Virus record (IMG/VR): IMGVR_UViG_3300048838_001248
Span: 64,001-102,208 of that record
Direction: 5' to 3' (one strand)
DNA: 38,208 nucleotides
Origin: a virus
Taxonomy: Duplodnaviria; Heunggongvirae; Uroviricota; Caudoviricetes
This document shows positions 1,994 to 13,586 of this stretch, piece by piece. How positions within the stretch are numbered: the first letter of the stretch is position 1; every line of letters begins with the position of its first letter. A program made the position numbers and the translations under genes. Under the pieces are notes generated by a model that searched no databases, was not told the origin of the DNA, and saw only the letters and a list, made by a program, of their open reading frames with translations.

Positions 1994-2028
1994 AAAAATC
2001 GGTAGTTAAACGCTACCGATTTTTTTTT
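1992..2028. terminator. Bidirectional intrinsic terminator
   Basis: AAAAAAATCGGTAG-ttaaacg-CTACCGATTTTTTT between convergent genes. Confidence 0.85.
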
Positions 2029-2384
2029 GACAGATATCCATAAACAAATCCCCTATCCCTATCATACTCTGATGCAAACATTGCAAGATTATCACAATAA
2101 CTTTTGTAATTTTCTTTCCAGTACAGAATAAATTCATCAATTGTTTCTGTAACTTCCCTTTCATTTGTGATTTTCTTATTTAAAAATAGTTTTTTAATCA
2201 CAAAAACTGCCCATGCTTTCCAATCAACTGTTAATTCGTTATGTTTTTCCTTTATATGTGTTACGGCTATTTCAAACACTACAACAAGATATGGTAGTTG
2301 TTGTTTATGACCGACAATTAATTCAAGAACTGGTGTGTATTTTTGAACTAATAAATCGATATTTTTATTTGTTAAATCTATCAT
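2013..2384 (-). CDS. Hypothetical protein
   Basis: Start moved to MIDLTNKN to reduce overlap with the upstream gene; TAG stop. Confidence 0.7.
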   Translation of the reverse strand: MIDLTNKNIDLLVQKYTPVLELIVGHKQQLPYLVVVFEIAVTHIKEKHNELTVDWKAWAVFVIKKLFLNKKITNEREVTETIDEFILYWKENYKSYCDNLAMFASEYDRDRGFVYGYLSKKNR

Positions 2385-3468
2385 ATGCGTTTTTAGAAAT
2401 CTGACAAATCTTAACCTTGCCAACGAATTCCTCTAATGTTTTTGCATTTACGTAACTCATTAAATTACGTAGGTAATGTTCGAAATTTTCAACCCATCCA
2501 TCAAGGTAGTACTCAACTCGTCTGAACCTCACAACGCCCTCAGAAGTCTTAAAACTGGTCTTTCCCATTGCCTTTTGTGCTTCCTTGGTACTCATTCCCC
2601 TGAAATATTTCTTAATTGGATATCCCTTATCGAAAAATTTCTTTGCGAGTTTTCTATTTAATTTAATACCGTATAGATAATTATCGGCAGCACTTTCAAA
2701 TGCTTTATTGAATATTGACCCAATCATCACGTAGTCTGCACCAAGTGCTAACGACTTAATTATGTCTGAATAGTCTTTCATTCCACCATCAGCAACAATT
2801 GCAGGTGCTTTTCTTTGAACAAAATCGGGATTTTTTCTTTCCTCAAGAGTGCCTTTTTCGAAAGCATTTTTTATTGTACGTATTTCATGAATTAATGATG
2901 CCATAGGATATCCAATGCCTGATTGTTTTGTTGTTAAACATCCATTACCGTTTCCAATACCAATCCTGATATAATCAACACAACCATACTCTGCATACCA
3001 GCGATATGTTTCAGGATTGGCTATGTTACCCACCATGATAATAATATCCGGTCTTAGCCTTTTTATTTCACGGCAGTAGTCAACAATTTTCTGCATGTGA
3101 CCATTAGCTACATCAATAAGAATGTGTGCATTTTCATGCAATTCTTTGAAATTATTTTTATACAAAACGTCAAGGTCATTAAAACCAAAACTAAAGAATG
3201 TGTTTGTATAATCGGTTTCTCGAATGCTATGTTCTGTACAGAAATTTTTAAATTCCTGATATTTAATTGTTCTGGGTAGTGCAACACTAATTCCATTACT
3301 GAAAAAATAACCCATATTTTCAAGGTTCACAACAGTATCCATTGGTGCGGTAATAAGTGGTAATGGTTTTGTGAGTTTAATTCCATTATATCTACTGGAG
3401 ATATGTGTTTTTTTGGCGGGAACTATTAATATGTCGTCAAAATCAAATTTAAATTCTATATTTTTCAT
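2365..3468 (-). CDS. GMP reductase / IMP dehydrogenase family (TIM barrel, no CBS domains)
   Basis: FDDILIVP, APMDTV, IDVANGH, GIGNGNGCLT catalytic loop, ADGG, LALGADYVMIG, GMST, SEG. Confidence 0.92.
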   Translation of the reverse strand: MKNIEFKFDFDDILIVPAKKTHISSRYNGIKLTKPLPLITAPMDTVVNLENMGYFFSNGISVALPRTIKYQEFKNFCTEHSIRETDYTNTFFSFGFNDLDVLYKNNFKELHENAHILIDVANGHMQKIVDYCREIKRLRPDIIIMVGNIANPETYRWYAEYGCVDYIRIGIGNGNGCLTTKQSGIGYPMASLIHEIRTIKNAFEKGTLEERKNPDFVQRKAPAIVADGGMKDYSDIIKSLALGADYVMIGSIFNKAFESAADNYLYGIKLNRKLAKKFFDKGYPIKKYFRGMSTKEAQKAMGKTSFKTSEGVVRFRRVEYYLDGWVENFEHYLRNLMSYVNAKTLEEFVGKVKICQISKNAYDRFNK

Positions 3469-3487
3469 GTTTTCTTTTTACAAAAAA

Positions 3488-3660
3488 GAAGTGTGTGTTT
3501 TTCACAAAAATGAAATGAGATAATGAATTTTAAGTTTTAAACCTTGAGATTTAAGCGCATGAATACACTAATTTTGAACATTCGTTATCTCTATCATTAC
3601 CAAGTAGAACGTGTCTGACACGAACAATCATAACATTTAAGTTACTCAACAACACACCTC
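3488..3660 (-). ncRNA. Putative structured ncRNA downstream of the DIP1984-like gene
   Basis: Outer helix 3488-3496/3652-3660; inner 12-bp helix 3517-3528/3580-3591; four tandem heptamers 3528-3555; hairpin 3610-3622. Confidence 0.55.
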
Positions 3661-3676
3661 AATATTATTTTCAGCG

Positions 3677-4150
3677 TTATTCTGAAATATCTTCATTCAG
3701 ATTACCCCAAGGAACATCGGTTGTATAATTATACGTATCAATTTCTTCTTGAAGCGCATCAACCTTTTCTTGAAACTCTTTAATGTATGCGGTTTTTGTT
3801 TGTTCATCAATTTGAACTGCAAATTCTCGAAGCGTTTCTGAACCAAATCTTCCACCCTCCTGAGTTCCTTCTGCAACCGGAACACCATTCCAAAAGGTAA
3901 TCAATGCTTTATATTCAGAAAGAACATAAATCTTGGATTGAATTTCACGATTTGCCTCATTAATGACAAATTTTAATCCAGTAAGCTGGTCAATTTTATC
4001 CATAAGTTCCTTATATAAATTTGGAACATTATATTTCTTTGGATTCAAAGAACCAACCAAATATGAGTTTTTTACTTGGATTTGTGCTTTCAACTGTGCA
4101 ATTTCGCCAATTAATTTTTTTCTGAGTTTTAATGCTTTGTGTAGTTTCAT
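3677..4150 (-). CDS. DIP1984-like coiled-coil protein
   Basis: MKLHKALKLRKKL start, INEAN, and LQEEIDTYNYTT end match the pattern I recall for this family. Confidence 0.7.
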   Translation of the reverse strand: MKLHKALKLRKKLIGEIAQLKAQIQVKNSYLVGSLNPKKYNVPNLYKELMDKIDQLTGLKFVINEANREIQSKIYVLSEYKALITFWNGVPVAEGTQEGGRFGSETLREFAVQIDEQTKTAYIKEFQEKVDALQEEIDTYNYTTDVPWGNLNEDISE

Positions 4151-4207
4151 AATTATCTATATTTTAATACGCAATATTAACAATAAATATTGTAACATAC
4201 AAGGAAT

Positions 4208-5095
4208 TTATATTTTAGTTTTAATTCTGAAATCAATTGACCACCCATATGGCATAAATTGTGGTTGCATTGTATCAATAAAATGATTTCTCCAGAGTTT
4301 TACAAAATCTTCAATTTTTTCCTCGGTATCTAATTTTTGAACAACATGATATCCGTGGTCAAATTCTTGACGACAATGATTTTTAAAATCATTAGTCTCA
4401 TTAAGATGTACGTCCTTCAATAACAAATAATACTTATACAATTGAACATATGTCCAACCATTGACCACATCAATAGGTATTCCGGTTTTTTCTGAAATAG
4501 TTTTTAGTTTTTCTTCAGTCACCTCCGGTGTTACCCTACCATATGTTTTAAATATTGAATGTATGGTGTTTAATAAGATTGCATTTTCTTTCCCAATTTC
4601 CCTGAGTTTTTTTGTATACTCTAAATTGAGTTCACCAATTGTTTTGACATTAAACATTCTGGCAATTTCATCTTTATATAGATTTGCCATTTGTTCGTAC
4701 TCTGAATGTTTTTGTTGATTAATTAAAACCACATCATGATGATTCTTTGATTTATATTCTTCTGGAAAATATGTGCGGTAGCAATAAGGAACAATATGAT
4801 GACGTTGCAGGTCATCTTCCACTCCGCTTACAACACATTTGGTTTCTCTTATACCTCTACCAAACTCTTCATTATCCTCAAAACCGTTTCCTCGTGGAAT
4901 AAAAGTCAACATGATTTTCTTTTTGCCGAAATCTATTGCTAAATTACGCTCCAAGTACCATGCTGCCTTTTTTTCTCCACAAGTAAACATATGTCTTCCA
5001 GATGGATGATAAACCTTCCAATTTTCGATGTTCAGGTTTTTACTTCCAGCCTTTAATATGTTATTTTTTTCTCTACCCTTGCTAATCTTTTCCAT
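4208..5095 (-). CDS. HNH-like protein resembling the EXD2 C-terminal domain
   Basis: KAAWYLERNL, CVVSG, RHHIVPYCYRTYFPEEYKSKNHHDVVL; start moved to MEKISK. Confidence 0.75.
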   Translation of the reverse strand: MEKISKGREKNNILKAGSKNLNIENWKVYHPSGRHMFTCGEKKAAWYLERNLAIDFGKKKIMLTFIPRGNGFEDNEEFGRGIRETKCVVSGVEDDLQRHHIVPYCYRTYFPEEYKSKNHHDVVLINQQKHSEYEQMANLYKDEIARMFNVKTIGELNLEYTKKLREIGKENAILLNTIHSIFKTYGRVTPEVTEEKLKTISEKTGIPIDVVNGWTYVQLYKYYLLLKDVHLNETNDFKNHCRQEFDHGYHVVQKLDTEEKIEDFVKLWRNHFIDTMQPQFMPYGWSIDFRIKTKI

Positions 5096-6086
5096 TATAT
5101 ATCTCCATGAAATAATCACGAATAACATCATAATTATTTTTAAGAATAAAATTATCGTAATCATCTCCCAGAGCATTCTTGAACTTGCCGATTGCAGCAC
5201 CCAATTCTTTACCCATAAGATTGGGAAGCCAAGACATTACAATATCACCATTAAATTTTTGCGATAATATTTTGTCCTGAGTATCTTTCATTTTCAATTC
5301 ATACAATTGACCCAGCAAATCTGATTCTGGAAAAAATTCGTCAATCATCGGCAAATATAAGTCCTTGTCTTTGTGATACTCATATCTCATATTGATATCA
5401 TTGTCTTTAAGATAATTCAAAAATATATGATATGAGCCACGTTTACGATTTCTTTTCTTGTCGATGCTTTTAAGGTTTTCCATTTTAAAGATTTCAGAAT
5501 CGAAATACTTGGTGTTTATGGTGAATTTGAATATGTCTTCCAGAGTTTCAAATCCCTGTAAATATCTATCATAGTCATATCCACCAAATTCAAATATTCT
5601 TTTAGCGTCTGTCGTCAACAAAATGTCGGCAGAGTTTCTTCCGTTGAAATTCCTGAACTTATAGAACAAGCCTTCCCAGCCATACGACAAACCAAATTTA
5701 TGGTATGTTTTACCCATTATATTACCAAGCGGGTCATATGAAAAATATACCAGCGCAGTTTCCCATTTCGATTCTGGGATTGGGATGAAATCAACTTGAA
5801 AGTTTTTATAATCAAAAGAATATACCCCACCATTAGCATAAACGGCTTCCGGTTGGAATGTTTTACGTATGTAGTCAACCCAATTTATGTTGGCATCAGT
5901 ATCAACCTTTATAAGTAAATCCAAATCACCGTGGTCTGCTTTAGTGTGATAGCACTTTATAACCGAACTGAAAAATGTCAAATCAAAGAAAACACGAACA
6001 TTGAGTTCATATCCTATTTGATTGAATTCTTCGGTGTTTTTTCTTTCAGTATAAACACCATATCTATTTAACGCTTTTCCTCCCAT
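5082..6086 (-). CDS. Pol-beta superfamily nucleotidyltransferase, possible CCA-adding-like
   Basis: GDLDLLI (DxD) and QVDFI third Asp; C-terminal FNGDIVM...GKELGAAI; start moved to MGGKAL. Confidence 0.7.
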   Translation of the reverse strand: MGGKALNRYGVYTERKNTEEFNQIGYELNVRVFFDLTFFSSVIKCYHTKADHGDLDLLIKVDTDANINWVDYIRKTFQPEAVYANGGVYSFDYKNFQVDFIPIPESKWETALVYFSYDPLGNIMGKTYHKFGLSYGWEGLFYKFRNFNGRNSADILLTTDAKRIFEFGGYDYDRYLQGFETLEDIFKFTINTKYFDSEIFKMENLKSIDKKRNRKRGSYHIFLNYLKDNDINMRYEYHKDKDLYLPMIDEFFPESDLLGQLYELKMKDTQDKILSQKFNGDIVMSWLPNLMGKELGAAIGKFKNALGDDYDNFILKNNYDVIRDYFMEIYNGKD

Positions 6087-6112
6087 TTTGAATTCGATTT
6101 TTTCGTTATGCA

Positions 6113-6142
6113 ATTATACGAAAACAAATTCAAAATGTTACA
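6113..6142 (-). promoter_or_regulatory. Promoter motif TGTAACATTT-N12-CGTATAAT
   Basis: Same 30-nt architecture at 6113, 14191, 17038 and 17749. Confidence 0.75.
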
Positions 6143-13501: not shown

Positions 13502-13514
13502 ATTATTTTATTTG

Positions 13515-13586
13515 AGGGCATAACGGGATTCGAACCCGTGGACATCGGTTTTAGAGACCGACTGGCGAACCAACCGTCATATGCCC
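13515..13586 (-). tRNA. Amber suppressor tRNA (anticodon CUA)
   Basis: Acceptor GGGCATA/TATGCCC; anticodon arm TCGGT-CTCTAAA-ACCGA; T-arm ACGGG-TTCGAAT-CCCGT; U73; weak D-arm. Confidence 0.85.

What the first reader, a model, noticed from the sequence alone, without database searches (positions are those of the whole stretch)
3488..4150. DIP1984-like protein followed by a folded RNA displaying tandem 7-nt repeats
Seen: the ~200-nt gap after the gene has an outer helix closing the whole region and a 12-bp inner helix. The inner helix encloses four exact-period heptamers on the transcript (CTTAAAT, CTCAAGG, TTTAAAA, CTTAAAA); similar units lie at 3572-3578 and 3636-3642. There is no ORF and no terminator U tract. 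Inference: an ncRNA that is the ligand or scaffold for an oligomeric coiled-coil protein, one repeat per subunit, i.e. a protein-RNA two-part system.
Basis: partly seen in the sequence, partly recalled or inferred. Interest (0 to 1): 0.7.

Follow-up and report, generated by a model that had tools for sequence, protein, structure and literature searches.

The report
Phage heptad-repeat RNA with partner protein
Directly after a small helical phage gene of unknown function lies a real, conserved 184-base folded RNA that displays four to five evenly spaced 7-base units; the gene and RNA always travel together, match no catalogued RNA family, and probably form an undescribed protein-RNA pair.

Summary
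Window 3481-3664 (minus strand) encodes a 184-nt structured RNA just 3' of a 157-aa DIP1984-like gene (3677-4150). A covariance model found it, full length and on the gene's strand, in 72-74 of about 80 non-redundant homologous loci from large uncultured phages.

- **Closing helices:** P1 (11 bp) and P2 (6 bp) show compensatory changes at every pair.
- **Heptads:** (U-N-A-A-R-N-N)x4 plus UCAUUUA is strictly in phase, with no indels.
- **Strand:** 82 G.U against 6 A.C cells in P1 place the fold on the sense strand.

Its 12-bp inner helix is lineage-specific (54% paired across the family). A conserved U tract does follow P1.

A conserved Bacteroidota-type promoter precedes the gene. The protein model matches PDB 3KDQ and is predicted to self-associate.

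I found no Rfam family and no paper. This scan had already noted the same kind of gene-plus-heptad-RNA pair on other DNA, with longer RNAs. This is a compact variant with a defined transcription unit.

Best reading: a dedicated protein-RNA pair. A HutP-like read-through control is a serious rival.

The parts
4172..4202 (-). Bacteroidota-type promoter-like motif (TTG, 20 nt, TAATATTG), ending about 20 nt before the start codon
   Evidence: A TTG-N17-23-T[AT]NNNTTG motif lies within 90 nt upstream of the gene in 53 of 61 homologous loci, against 70 of 1220 control windows. That it is a -33/-7 promoter is inferred from the published Bacteroidota consensus (TTTG / TAnnTTTG, from memory).
3677..4150 (-). 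DIP1984-like protein gene, 157 aa, TAA stop
   Evidence: ORF. NF038048 DIP1984_fam E 5.9e-8, 33 bits, below the 70-bit cut-off, aligned over 1-148 of 149 profile positions. AF2 model pLDDT 91. Best PDB fold match 3KDQ chain C, TM 0.72/0.74. A profile of the subfamily finds 2350 clusters.
3481..3664 (-). The whole structured RNA as matched by the covariance models (184 nt)
   Evidence: R1 153 bits, R2 139 bits, full length. It is the only copy in the 102-kb virus record.
3648..3660 (-). P1 5' strand (GAGGUGUGUUGUU)
   Evidence: Pairs with 3488-3499. 11 pairs, 95.2% of cells paired, and every pair has compensatory changes.
3642..3647 (-). Conserved junction GAGUAA, the 5' side of the internal loop between P1 and P2
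   Evidence: Conserved in alignments A5 and A7. It lies opposite nnAAAGr, window UGAAA at 3500-3504.
3634..3641 (-). P2 5' strand (C-UU-AAAUG)
   Evidence: Pairs with 3505-3512 (CAUUU-UU-G). C3641-G3505 plus 5 further pairs, with two U.U mismatches. All 6 pairs covary and 83-88% of cells are paired. Cognate strands pair better than non-cognate ones in all 2000 permutations.
3601..3633 (-). Variable region. In this window it holds the hairpin CGUGUC/GACACG (3617-3622 with 3610-3615).
   Evidence: Length and sequence vary between loci. Many loci have a hairpin here, but the family-wide median z-score is about 0.
3560..3600 (-). Conserved core: AAyGAUAGnG, then the hairpin P4 (GAAU / AUUC) with loop GUUCAAnAnUCnUGn
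   Evidence: Nearly invariant sequence. P4 is 80-92% paired but hardly varies, so covariation neither supports nor contradicts it.
3520..3554 (-). Heptad rail: UUAAAUC UCAAGGU UUAAAAC UUAAAAU UCAUUAU
   Evidence: Family consensus is (U-N-A-A-R-N-N)x4 plus UCAUUUA. Positions 1, 3 and 4 carry 1.4-2.0 bits in each unit and positions 2, 6 and 7 carry little. The 35 columns are essentially gap-free.
3505..3512 (-). P2 3' strand (CAUUUUUG)
   Evidence: See the P2 5' strand entry.
3488..3499 (-). P1 3' strand (AACACACACUUC)
   Evidence: See the P1 5' strand entry.
3481..3487 (-). U tract directly after P1 (UUUUUUG), 12 nt before the next start codon
   Evidence: The 9 nt after P1 average 73% U against a 30% background, and 61 of 74 loci have at least 6 of 9 U. 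The next ORF starts 7-14 nt after the modelled RNA in most loci.
2365..3468 (-). Downstream GMP reductase / IMP dehydrogenase-like gene. It is a neighbour, not part of the pair.
   Evidence: PF00478 E 8.8e-34; NCBIfam GMP reductase models match below their cut-offs. About 13 of the 72 loci lack it downstream: nine have another gene and four have no ORF in range. All still have the RNA.

Best explanation
The gene and the RNA form one transcription unit: a host-type promoter, the DIP1984-like ORF, then a 184-nt RNA. The RNA's 5' and 3' ends are clamped by helices P1 and P2, and it ends in a U tract. Inside the clamp a 35-nt single-stranded rail of four to five in-phase U-N-A-A-R units is displayed next to a conserved hairpin core.

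I think the protein docks on this rail and forms a dedicated protein-RNA particle on the 3' part of its own transcript. The protein is a 3KDQ-fold helical bundle with a strongly basic first helix and is predicted to pair with itself.

Shown: the RNA fold, the phased rail, its strand, and the tight two-way genetic linkage. Inferred: protein-RNA binding, the stoichiometry, and what the particle does. The closing helix plus U tract most likely sets or protects the RNA's 3' end.
For: **The RNA is real and is on the sense strand**
- P1 and P2 covary at all 17 pairs. Overall, 83.7% of cells are paired against 72.3% in shuffles, 0 of 500 shuffles reach the observed values, and slid controls give 42-53%.
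- P1 has 82 G.U cells against 6 A.C cells.

**The rail is conserved in phase**
- It has a period-7 conservation pattern and no indels.

**Linkage to the gene**
- The RNA is present in 72 of 78 loci with R1 and 74 of 83 with R2, always directly 3' of the gene and on its strand.
- It persists in about 13 loci that lack the usual downstream gene.
- All 9 true RNA hits from RNA-motif scans have the gene upstream.
- More distant relatives (L128, L129, L034/L012) and a bona fide DIP1984 gene (L125) are also followed by non-coding stretches in which I read, by eye, a closing helix (not in L125) and 7-nt units. L127 matched model R2 only weakly (37.6 bits), and in L126 I saw no clear rail.

**Transcription unit**
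- A promoter-like motif is present in 53 of 61 loci against 6% of control windows, and a conserved U tract follows P1.

**Protein**
- AF2 pLDDT is 91. The best fold match is 3KDQ, TM 0.72/0.74.
- Helix 1 has net charge +7, with K2, K5, K8, R10, K11, K21 and K27 basic in at least 89% of sequences.
- Self-association model: score 0.69, best of 3 controls 0.32. In the tool's calibration this mark was reached by 20 of 30 proteins solved as pairs and 1 of 23 solved as single chains. Runs agree in at least 92% of contacts and partner pLDDT is at least 88.
- Caveats on that model: I used my own alignment and four copies, unlike the calibration, and a related crystal structure (3KDQ) exists, so the pass may reflect memory of it.
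Against: - No binding, transcript or processing data exist.
- Co-location could reflect shared transcription only.
- A symmetric dimer does not obviously match a directional rail of 4-5 direct repeats. Identity covariation between units is weak (unit 1 against unit 3 at position 2: 47% identical, 28% expected).
- The next gene starts only 7-14 nt after the RNA. That fits a cis-regulatory leader at least as well as a free particle.
Confidence: 0.5

Rival explanations
1. HutP-like cis control. The RNA is a regulatory terminator or leader between the regulator gene and the next gene. P1 plus the U tract stops transcription, or masks the next start site 7-14 nt away. The protein binds the 7-nt-period rail that abuts the P2 3' strand, opens or locks P2/P1, and so sets read-through into the downstream gene.
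For: - The layout matches the hut operon: promoter, hutP, a terminator RNA with UAGNNNNUAGNNNNUAG, then the structural genes (PMC2425495).
- Here the order is promoter, gene, RNA with a period-7 motif, a conserved U tract directly after P1, and the next ORF 7-14 nt later with no room for its own promoter.
- The last heptad lies 7 nt from the P2 3' strand.
Against: - The 'terminator' would have a loop of about 160 nt, which is atypical.
- The RNA carries far more conserved sequence than a terminator needs: GAGUAA, GAUAGnG and the GAAUGUUCAA...AUUCAUG core.
- The downstream gene is not constant.
- The protein fold is unrelated to HutP.
- I found no conserved alternative pairing.
Confidence: 0.27
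2. The RNA acts without the neighbouring protein. It would be a stable small RNA or a 3'-UTR stabiliser/terminator that simply shares the promoter, with the heptads binding a host factor or another RNA.
For: - Clamped ends and a U tail are typical of stable small RNAs.
- No direct evidence links the protein to the RNA physically.
- The region is rich in other phage RNAs, including 28 tRNAs in the window.
Against: - The linkage is very strict and runs both ways, over protein identities from 85% down to about 30% and in quite different gene neighbourhoods.
- In the few divergent relatives I read by eye, the unit sequence differs with the lineage: UNAAR here, UCAnGG in L129, CAC-N4 in L125. That fits a co-evolving partner better than a universal host factor.
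Confidence: 0.15
3. A DNA-level element: iterons, a recombination site, or a miniature transposon with inverted ends.
For: P1 is an inverted repeat that flanks short direct repeats.
Against: - P1 has 82 G.U against 6 A.C cells, so it pairs on one strand only.
- A 7-bp spacing is out of phase with the DNA helix.
- The element sits at a fixed position and orientation after one gene, with a single copy per record.
Confidence: 0.03

Closest known systems
HutP with the hut terminator RNA of Bacillus subtilis (PMC2425495)
   Same: A promoter-proximal small protein gene is followed by a structured RNA ending in a U tract and then further genes. The RNA motif repeats with a 7-nt period (UAGNNNN in hut, UNAARNN here) and is read by an oligomeric protein.
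   Different: - HutP is a hexamer with a different fold and needs histidine and Mg2+.
- Its RNA is an ordinary terminator hairpin with two sites of three units.
- Here the RNA is a 184-nt multi-helix fold with 4-5 contiguous units, the protein has the 3KDQ fold, and no ligand or regulation is known.
TRAP with the trp leader (Bacillus); from memory
   Same: Many short single-stranded repeats are wrapped on a protein oligomer, one unit per subunit.
   Different: TRAP uses 11 (G/U)AG triplets with 2-3 nt spacers on an 11-mer beta-ring. Here the period is a strict 7 nt, there are few units, and the protein is helical.
DIP1984 family / DUF6847 / PDB 3KDQ (Corynebacterium diphtheriae protein of unknown function)
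   Same: Same fold (TM 0.72/0.74). The family HMM aligns over its full length.
   Different: The match is below the curated cut-offs (33 against 70 bits; Pfam 18.9 against 27). This is a divergent phage subfamily. I found no published function or RNA partner for the family.
Gene-plus-heptad-RNA pairs noted earlier in this scan on other genomes (AI notes, unpublished)
   Same: A DIP1984-like gene is directly followed by a closed RNA with in-phase 7-nt units, often beside tRNA genes.
   Different: Those RNAs are reported as 230-375 nt, with about 10-12 units and pseudoknots. This one is 184 nt with 4-5 units, I could not establish a pseudoknot, and RAGATH-27 does not match here.
Y RNA (YrlA) with Ro60/Rsr; from memory
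   Same: A small RNA with a clamped stem is encoded next to its protein partner, also in phages.
   Different: There is no sequence, fold or Rfam match, the protein family differs, and Y RNAs have no heptad array.

Membership tests
DIP1984 family protein (NCBIfam NF038048) | HMM score at or above the curated cut-off (70 bits) | tested here: not met
   33 bits, E 5.9e-8, aligned over 1-148 of 149 positions. Genome search gave 29.1 bits.
DIP1984 family protein (NCBIfam NF038048) | Fold of the family's solved member (PDB 3KDQ) | tested here: met
   The AF2 model (pLDDT 91) has 3KDQ as its best PDB match: chain C TM 0.72/0.74, chain A 0.61/0.63, Foldseek probability 1.00 but E only 0.02-0.07. That 3KDQ is DIP1984 itself rests on its title and on my memory.
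Pfam DUF6847 (PF20935) | Score at or above the gathering threshold (27 bits) | tested here: not met
   18.9 bits, E 0.0015, residues 10-72 only.
DIP1984-associated heptad-repeat RNA (class noted by this scan, not published) | Lies directly 3' of a DIP1984-like gene on the same strand | tested here: met
   Window hit at 3481-3664 (-), 12 nt after the stop codon. The same holds in 72-74 loci.
DIP1984-associated heptad-repeat RNA (class noted by this scan, not published) | Closing helix supported by covariation | tested here: met
   P1 and P2: 17 pairs, all with compensatory changes.
DIP1984-associated heptad-repeat RNA (class noted by this scan, not published) | Array of in-phase 7-nt units | tested here: met
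   4 units plus a degenerate fifth, with period-7 information content and no indels. This is fewer than the roughly 10-12 units reported elsewhere.
DIP1984-associated heptad-repeat RNA (class noted by this scan, not published) | Pseudoknots | tested here: inconclusive
   A candidate crossing pair (AAyGAUA with UAUCGU) is seen in some lineages only (60 of 2000 permutations as good). It was not modelled further.
HutP-type anti-termination | Regulator gene first after the promoter, then an RNA element, then the regulated genes | tested here: met
   Promoter motif, gene, RNA, and the next ORF 7-14 nt later. The hut layout is from PMC2425495.
HutP-type anti-termination | Intrinsic terminator hairpin with a U tract in the element | tested here: inconclusive
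HutP-type anti-termination | HutP protein fold and the UAG-N4 motif | tested here: not met
   The fold is 3KDQ-like and HutP is not among the listed best 50 PDB matches. The motif is UNAAR, not UAG.
Any Rfam 15 family (including RAGATH-27, RF03100) | Covariance-model match | tested here: not met
   No hit in the region at gathering score. At E up to 10 only chance-level hits appear, and RF03100 is not among them. Five related loci give nothing at E up to 0.1.
Type III toxin-antitoxin (ToxIN-like) | Tandem repeats of about 34-36 nt upstream of an endoribonuclease toxin gene | tested here: not met
   The repeats are 7 nt and lie downstream of the gene. PADLOC gives only weak coiled-coil hits.

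The most novel reading that the evidence does not exclude
DIP1984-family proteins (2350 sequence clusters in phages, bacteria and other microbes) are the protein half of a widespread, undescribed ribonucleoprotein. Dimers would dock side by side on a single-stranded 'rail' of 7-nt units held out by a clamped RNA scaffold, and the number of units would set how many copies bind. In large phages the particle would work in RNA or tRNA metabolism, or against host defence. The 184-nt RNA here would be its minimal natural form.
Probability: 0.4. Interest if true: 0.85.

Novelty: categorically new. Interest (0 to 1): 0.72.

Why it matters
If the pairing is physical, a large protein family of unknown function gains an RNA partner, and a new class of structured RNA enters the catalogue. 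The family has a crystal structure from 2009 but no assigned role.

This compact 184-nt form suits EMSA, structure work and mutational tests. It has only four to five units, two well-defined clamping helices, and a mapped promoter and U tract. It also offers a second natural example, after HutP, of a 7-nt-period RNA code read by a protein. That makes 'how do oligomeric proteins measure RNA' directly testable.

The finding is not unique to this window. The scan had already noted the same kind of pair on other DNA.

Tried and rejected
- **Single-sequence folding:** z -1.55 on the sense strand and -2.01 on the antisense strand, so it is not informative alone.
- **Hidden ORF under recoding:** the phage carries a CTA-anticodon suppressor tRNA. 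With TAG read as Gln the gap still holds only 24-41-aa ORFs, and the conservation period is 7, not 3.
only 54% of cells are paired. A cognate against non-cognate test shows some lineage-specific GnGAU/AUCnC pairing.
- **A variable hairpin P3 as a family feature:** median z is about 0.
- **P5 pseudoknot candidate:** weak.
- **Riboswitch for the GMP-reductase-like gene:** rejected, because about 13 of 72 loci lack that gene yet keep the RNA.
- **GenBank phages:** only one distant protein hit, LR756500.1, so I could not test the link to named phages such as T5 claimed in earlier notes.
- **Genome collection:** only phage contigs binned in MAGs.
- **Degenerate DNA pattern scan:** mostly chance hits. 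Only 3 of 77 new loci passed the model.
- **Neighbouring genes:** a nucleotidyltransferase-like gene and a 295-aa protein gave no informative family.
- **Literature:** no hits for DUF6847 or RAGATH-27, and one irrelevant hit for DIP1984.

Full report
**Setting.** The window is part of a 102-kb fragment of a large uncultured phage. It has 34% GC, and nearly all genes are on the minus strand. It carries 28 tRNA genes, including one with a CTA anticodon, and shows faint DNA similarity to Prevotella Lak phages. The finding covers the minus-strand gene 3677-4150 (157 aa) and the 208-nt gap before the next gene (2365-3468, GMP reductase/IMPDH-like).

- The gap has no credible ORF, even with TAG read as Gln.
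- On this sequence alone the fold is unremarkable (z -1.55). The case therefore rests on relatives.
- Protein-guided searches gave 12, then 23 viral loci and 80 metagenomic loci. All have a non-coding gap of about 180-260 nt after the gene, even where the downstream gene differs.
- A covariance model built from 8 sequences found the element in 72 of 78 non-redundant loci. It is always full length, on the gene's strand, and starts a few bases after the stop codon.
- A second model with more helices found 74.
- The window has one copy, at 3481-3664 (-), and so does the whole record.

**Structure.**
- P1 (3648-3660 with 3488-3499) has 11 pairs, 95% of cells paired, and compensatory changes at every pair.
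- P2 (3634-3641 with 3505-3512) has a Y-R closing pair, two U.U mismatches and five further pairs. It is 83-88% paired and also covaries throughout.
- No shuffle of 500 reaches the observed values, and sliding the partners drops pairing to 42-53%. An alignment-free test of cognate against non-cognate strands confirms P2 (0 of 2000 permutations).
- P1 contains 82 G.U cells against 6 A.C cells, so the fold belongs to the sense strand, that is to the transcript.
- Between P1 and P2 lies a conserved internal loop, GAGUAA opposite nnAAAGr.
- Inside P2 come a variable stretch (a hairpin in this window but not family-wide), then a nearly invariant core: AAyGAUAGnG, followed by GAAUGUUCAAnAnUCnUGnAUUCAUG. 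The core's short hairpin P4 is conserved but does not vary enough to test.

**The heptads.**
- Window 3520-3554 reads UUAAAUC UCAAGGU UUAAAAC UUAAAAU UCAUUAU.
- Across 72 sequences the 35 columns are essentially gap-free. Information content repeats every 7 nt: U at position 1, A at 3 and 4, purine at 5, and little at 2, 6 and 7.
- Units 2 and 4 prefer U at position 2 while units 1 and 3 do not, which hints at a 14-nt super-period.
- Identity covariation between equivalent units is only modest.
- The rail is unpaired in the supported structure and ends 7 nt before the P2 3' strand.

**Transcription unit.**
- A TTG-N17-23-T[AT]NNNTTG motif ends about 20 nt before the start codon in 53 of 61 loci, against 6% of control windows. 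In the window it reads TTG, 20 nt, TAATATTG. It resembles the Bacteroidota -33/-7 promoter (consensus from memory).
- Directly after P1 the sequence is U-rich: 73% against a 30% background.
- The next ORF starts 7-14 nt later in most loci. It must be reached by read-through, which keeps a cis-regulatory reading alive.

**Linkage to the protein.**
- Most of the 72 loci (59) have the GMP-reductase-like gene downstream. Nine have another gene, often a gene of about 125 aa like window 2013-2423. Four have no ORF within range. All still have the RNA.
- Scanning the viral collection for RNA motifs, then scoring with the model, gave 9 true RNA hits. All have the gene upstream.
- A profile of the protein subfamily finds 2350 clusters in 1.84 billion representatives.
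- I looked up three distant representatives. All are followed by gaps of 176-257 nt. In L128 and the GC-rich L129 I read a closing helix and 7-nt units by eye; L127 matched model R2 only weakly at 37.6 bits.
- Two bona fide DIP1984 genes in Bacteroidota genomes were also inspected by eye. L125 (168 bits) is followed by about 300 nt holding CAC-N4 heptads and a T-arm-like hairpin. In L126 I saw no clear rail.
- The most divergent viral relative (L012/L034) also shows a closing helix and about 8 units by eye.

**The protein.**
- The HMM matches are below the curated cut-offs.
- The AF2 model is confident (pLDDT 91). Its best PDB match is 3KDQ, a Corynebacterium diphtheriae protein of unknown function, over the full length (TM 0.72/0.74).
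- Helix 1 is strongly basic (+7) with conserved Lys/Arg.
- A four-copy co-fold supports self-association through a symmetric two-copy interface. The score is 0.69 and the best of 3 controls is 0.32. In the tool's calibration the mark was reached by 20 of 30 solved pairs and 1 of 23 single chains. Runs agree in at least 92% of contacts and partner pLDDT is at least 88.
- That job differs from the calibration (own alignment, four copies), and the existing crystal structure may be remembered.
- Protein-RNA binding itself was not and could not be tested here.

**What it most likely is.** The best-supported reading (about 0.5) is a dedicated protein-RNA pair. The RNA is made as the 3' part of the protein's own transcript, clamped by P1/P2 and ended or protected at the U tract. 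It offers a single-stranded rail of UNAAR units to the self-associating, basic-helix protein.

**Rivals.**
- The main rival (about 0.27) is a HutP-like switch. In the hut operon the regulator gene is promoter-proximal and is followed by a terminator RNA with UAG every 7 nt, then the regulated genes (PMC2425495). The layout here is the same, but the RNA is much more elaborate, the downstream gene varies, and the protein fold is unrelated.
- An RNA that works without the protein (about 0.15) and a DNA-level element (about 0.03) are less likely, for the reasons above.

**Novelty.**
- No Rfam family matches, and I found no paper on the protein family or the RNA.
- Earlier AI notes of this scan describe the same kind of pair on other genomes with longer RNAs. 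I treated them as leads.
- I confirmed independently that more distant family members carry heptad arrays. I did not find the RAGATH-27 match here that one note reports for a different genome. I could not test the claimed presence in phage T5.

**Limits.**
- P4 and possible pseudoknots are unresolved.
- The alignments used for pair counts were fitted to the model's structure.
- E-values from the home-built models are rough.

Noticed in passing
window 4172-4202 (-): A conserved Bacteroidota-type promoter-like motif (TTG, 20 nt, TAATATTG) lies upstream of the DIP1984-like gene in 53 of 61 related loci. This suggests a Bacteroidota host and an independently transcribed unit.
   Followed up: partly
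L125:1211-2260 (Bacteroidota genome): A bona fide DIP1984_fam gene (168 bits) has two tRNA genes just upstream. After it comes about 300 nt of non-coding DNA with a perfect T-arm-like hairpin (GTGGGTTCGATCCCCAC) and CAC-N4 heptads, ending in a terminator.
   Followed up: partly
window 3565-3579 (-), P4 loop: The invariant loop UGUUCAAnA looks like both a heptad unit and a tRNA T-loop (UUCAAAU). Whether it mimics a tRNA elbow or is an extra protein site is untested.
   Followed up: no
window 2013-2423 (-): Relatives of this 136-aa gene directly follow the RNA in loci that lack the GMP-reductase-like gene (for example L027, L031, L088, L111). The reductase-like gene therefore looks like an insertion into, or loss from, a conserved order.
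   Followed up: partly
window 4208-6113 (-): Two upstream genes keep their order before the pair in the related large-phage loci: a pol-beta-type nucleotidyltransferase-like gene (343 aa) and a 295-aa protein. Neither matched an informative family.
   Followed up: partly
window 13514-13586 (-): A tRNA with a CTA anticodon (amber suppressor) lies among 28 tRNA genes. Long ORFs gain little from recoding TAG, so the phage mostly uses the standard code.
   Followed up: partly
L118-L121 (genome contigs): Large-phage contigs carrying this pair sit in MAGs labelled Paceibacterota, Ignavibacteriales, Bacteroidetes and Omnitrophota. One is the same 362,763-bp contig as an IMG/VR virus record, so this is probably phage DNA binned with cells.
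   Followed up: no
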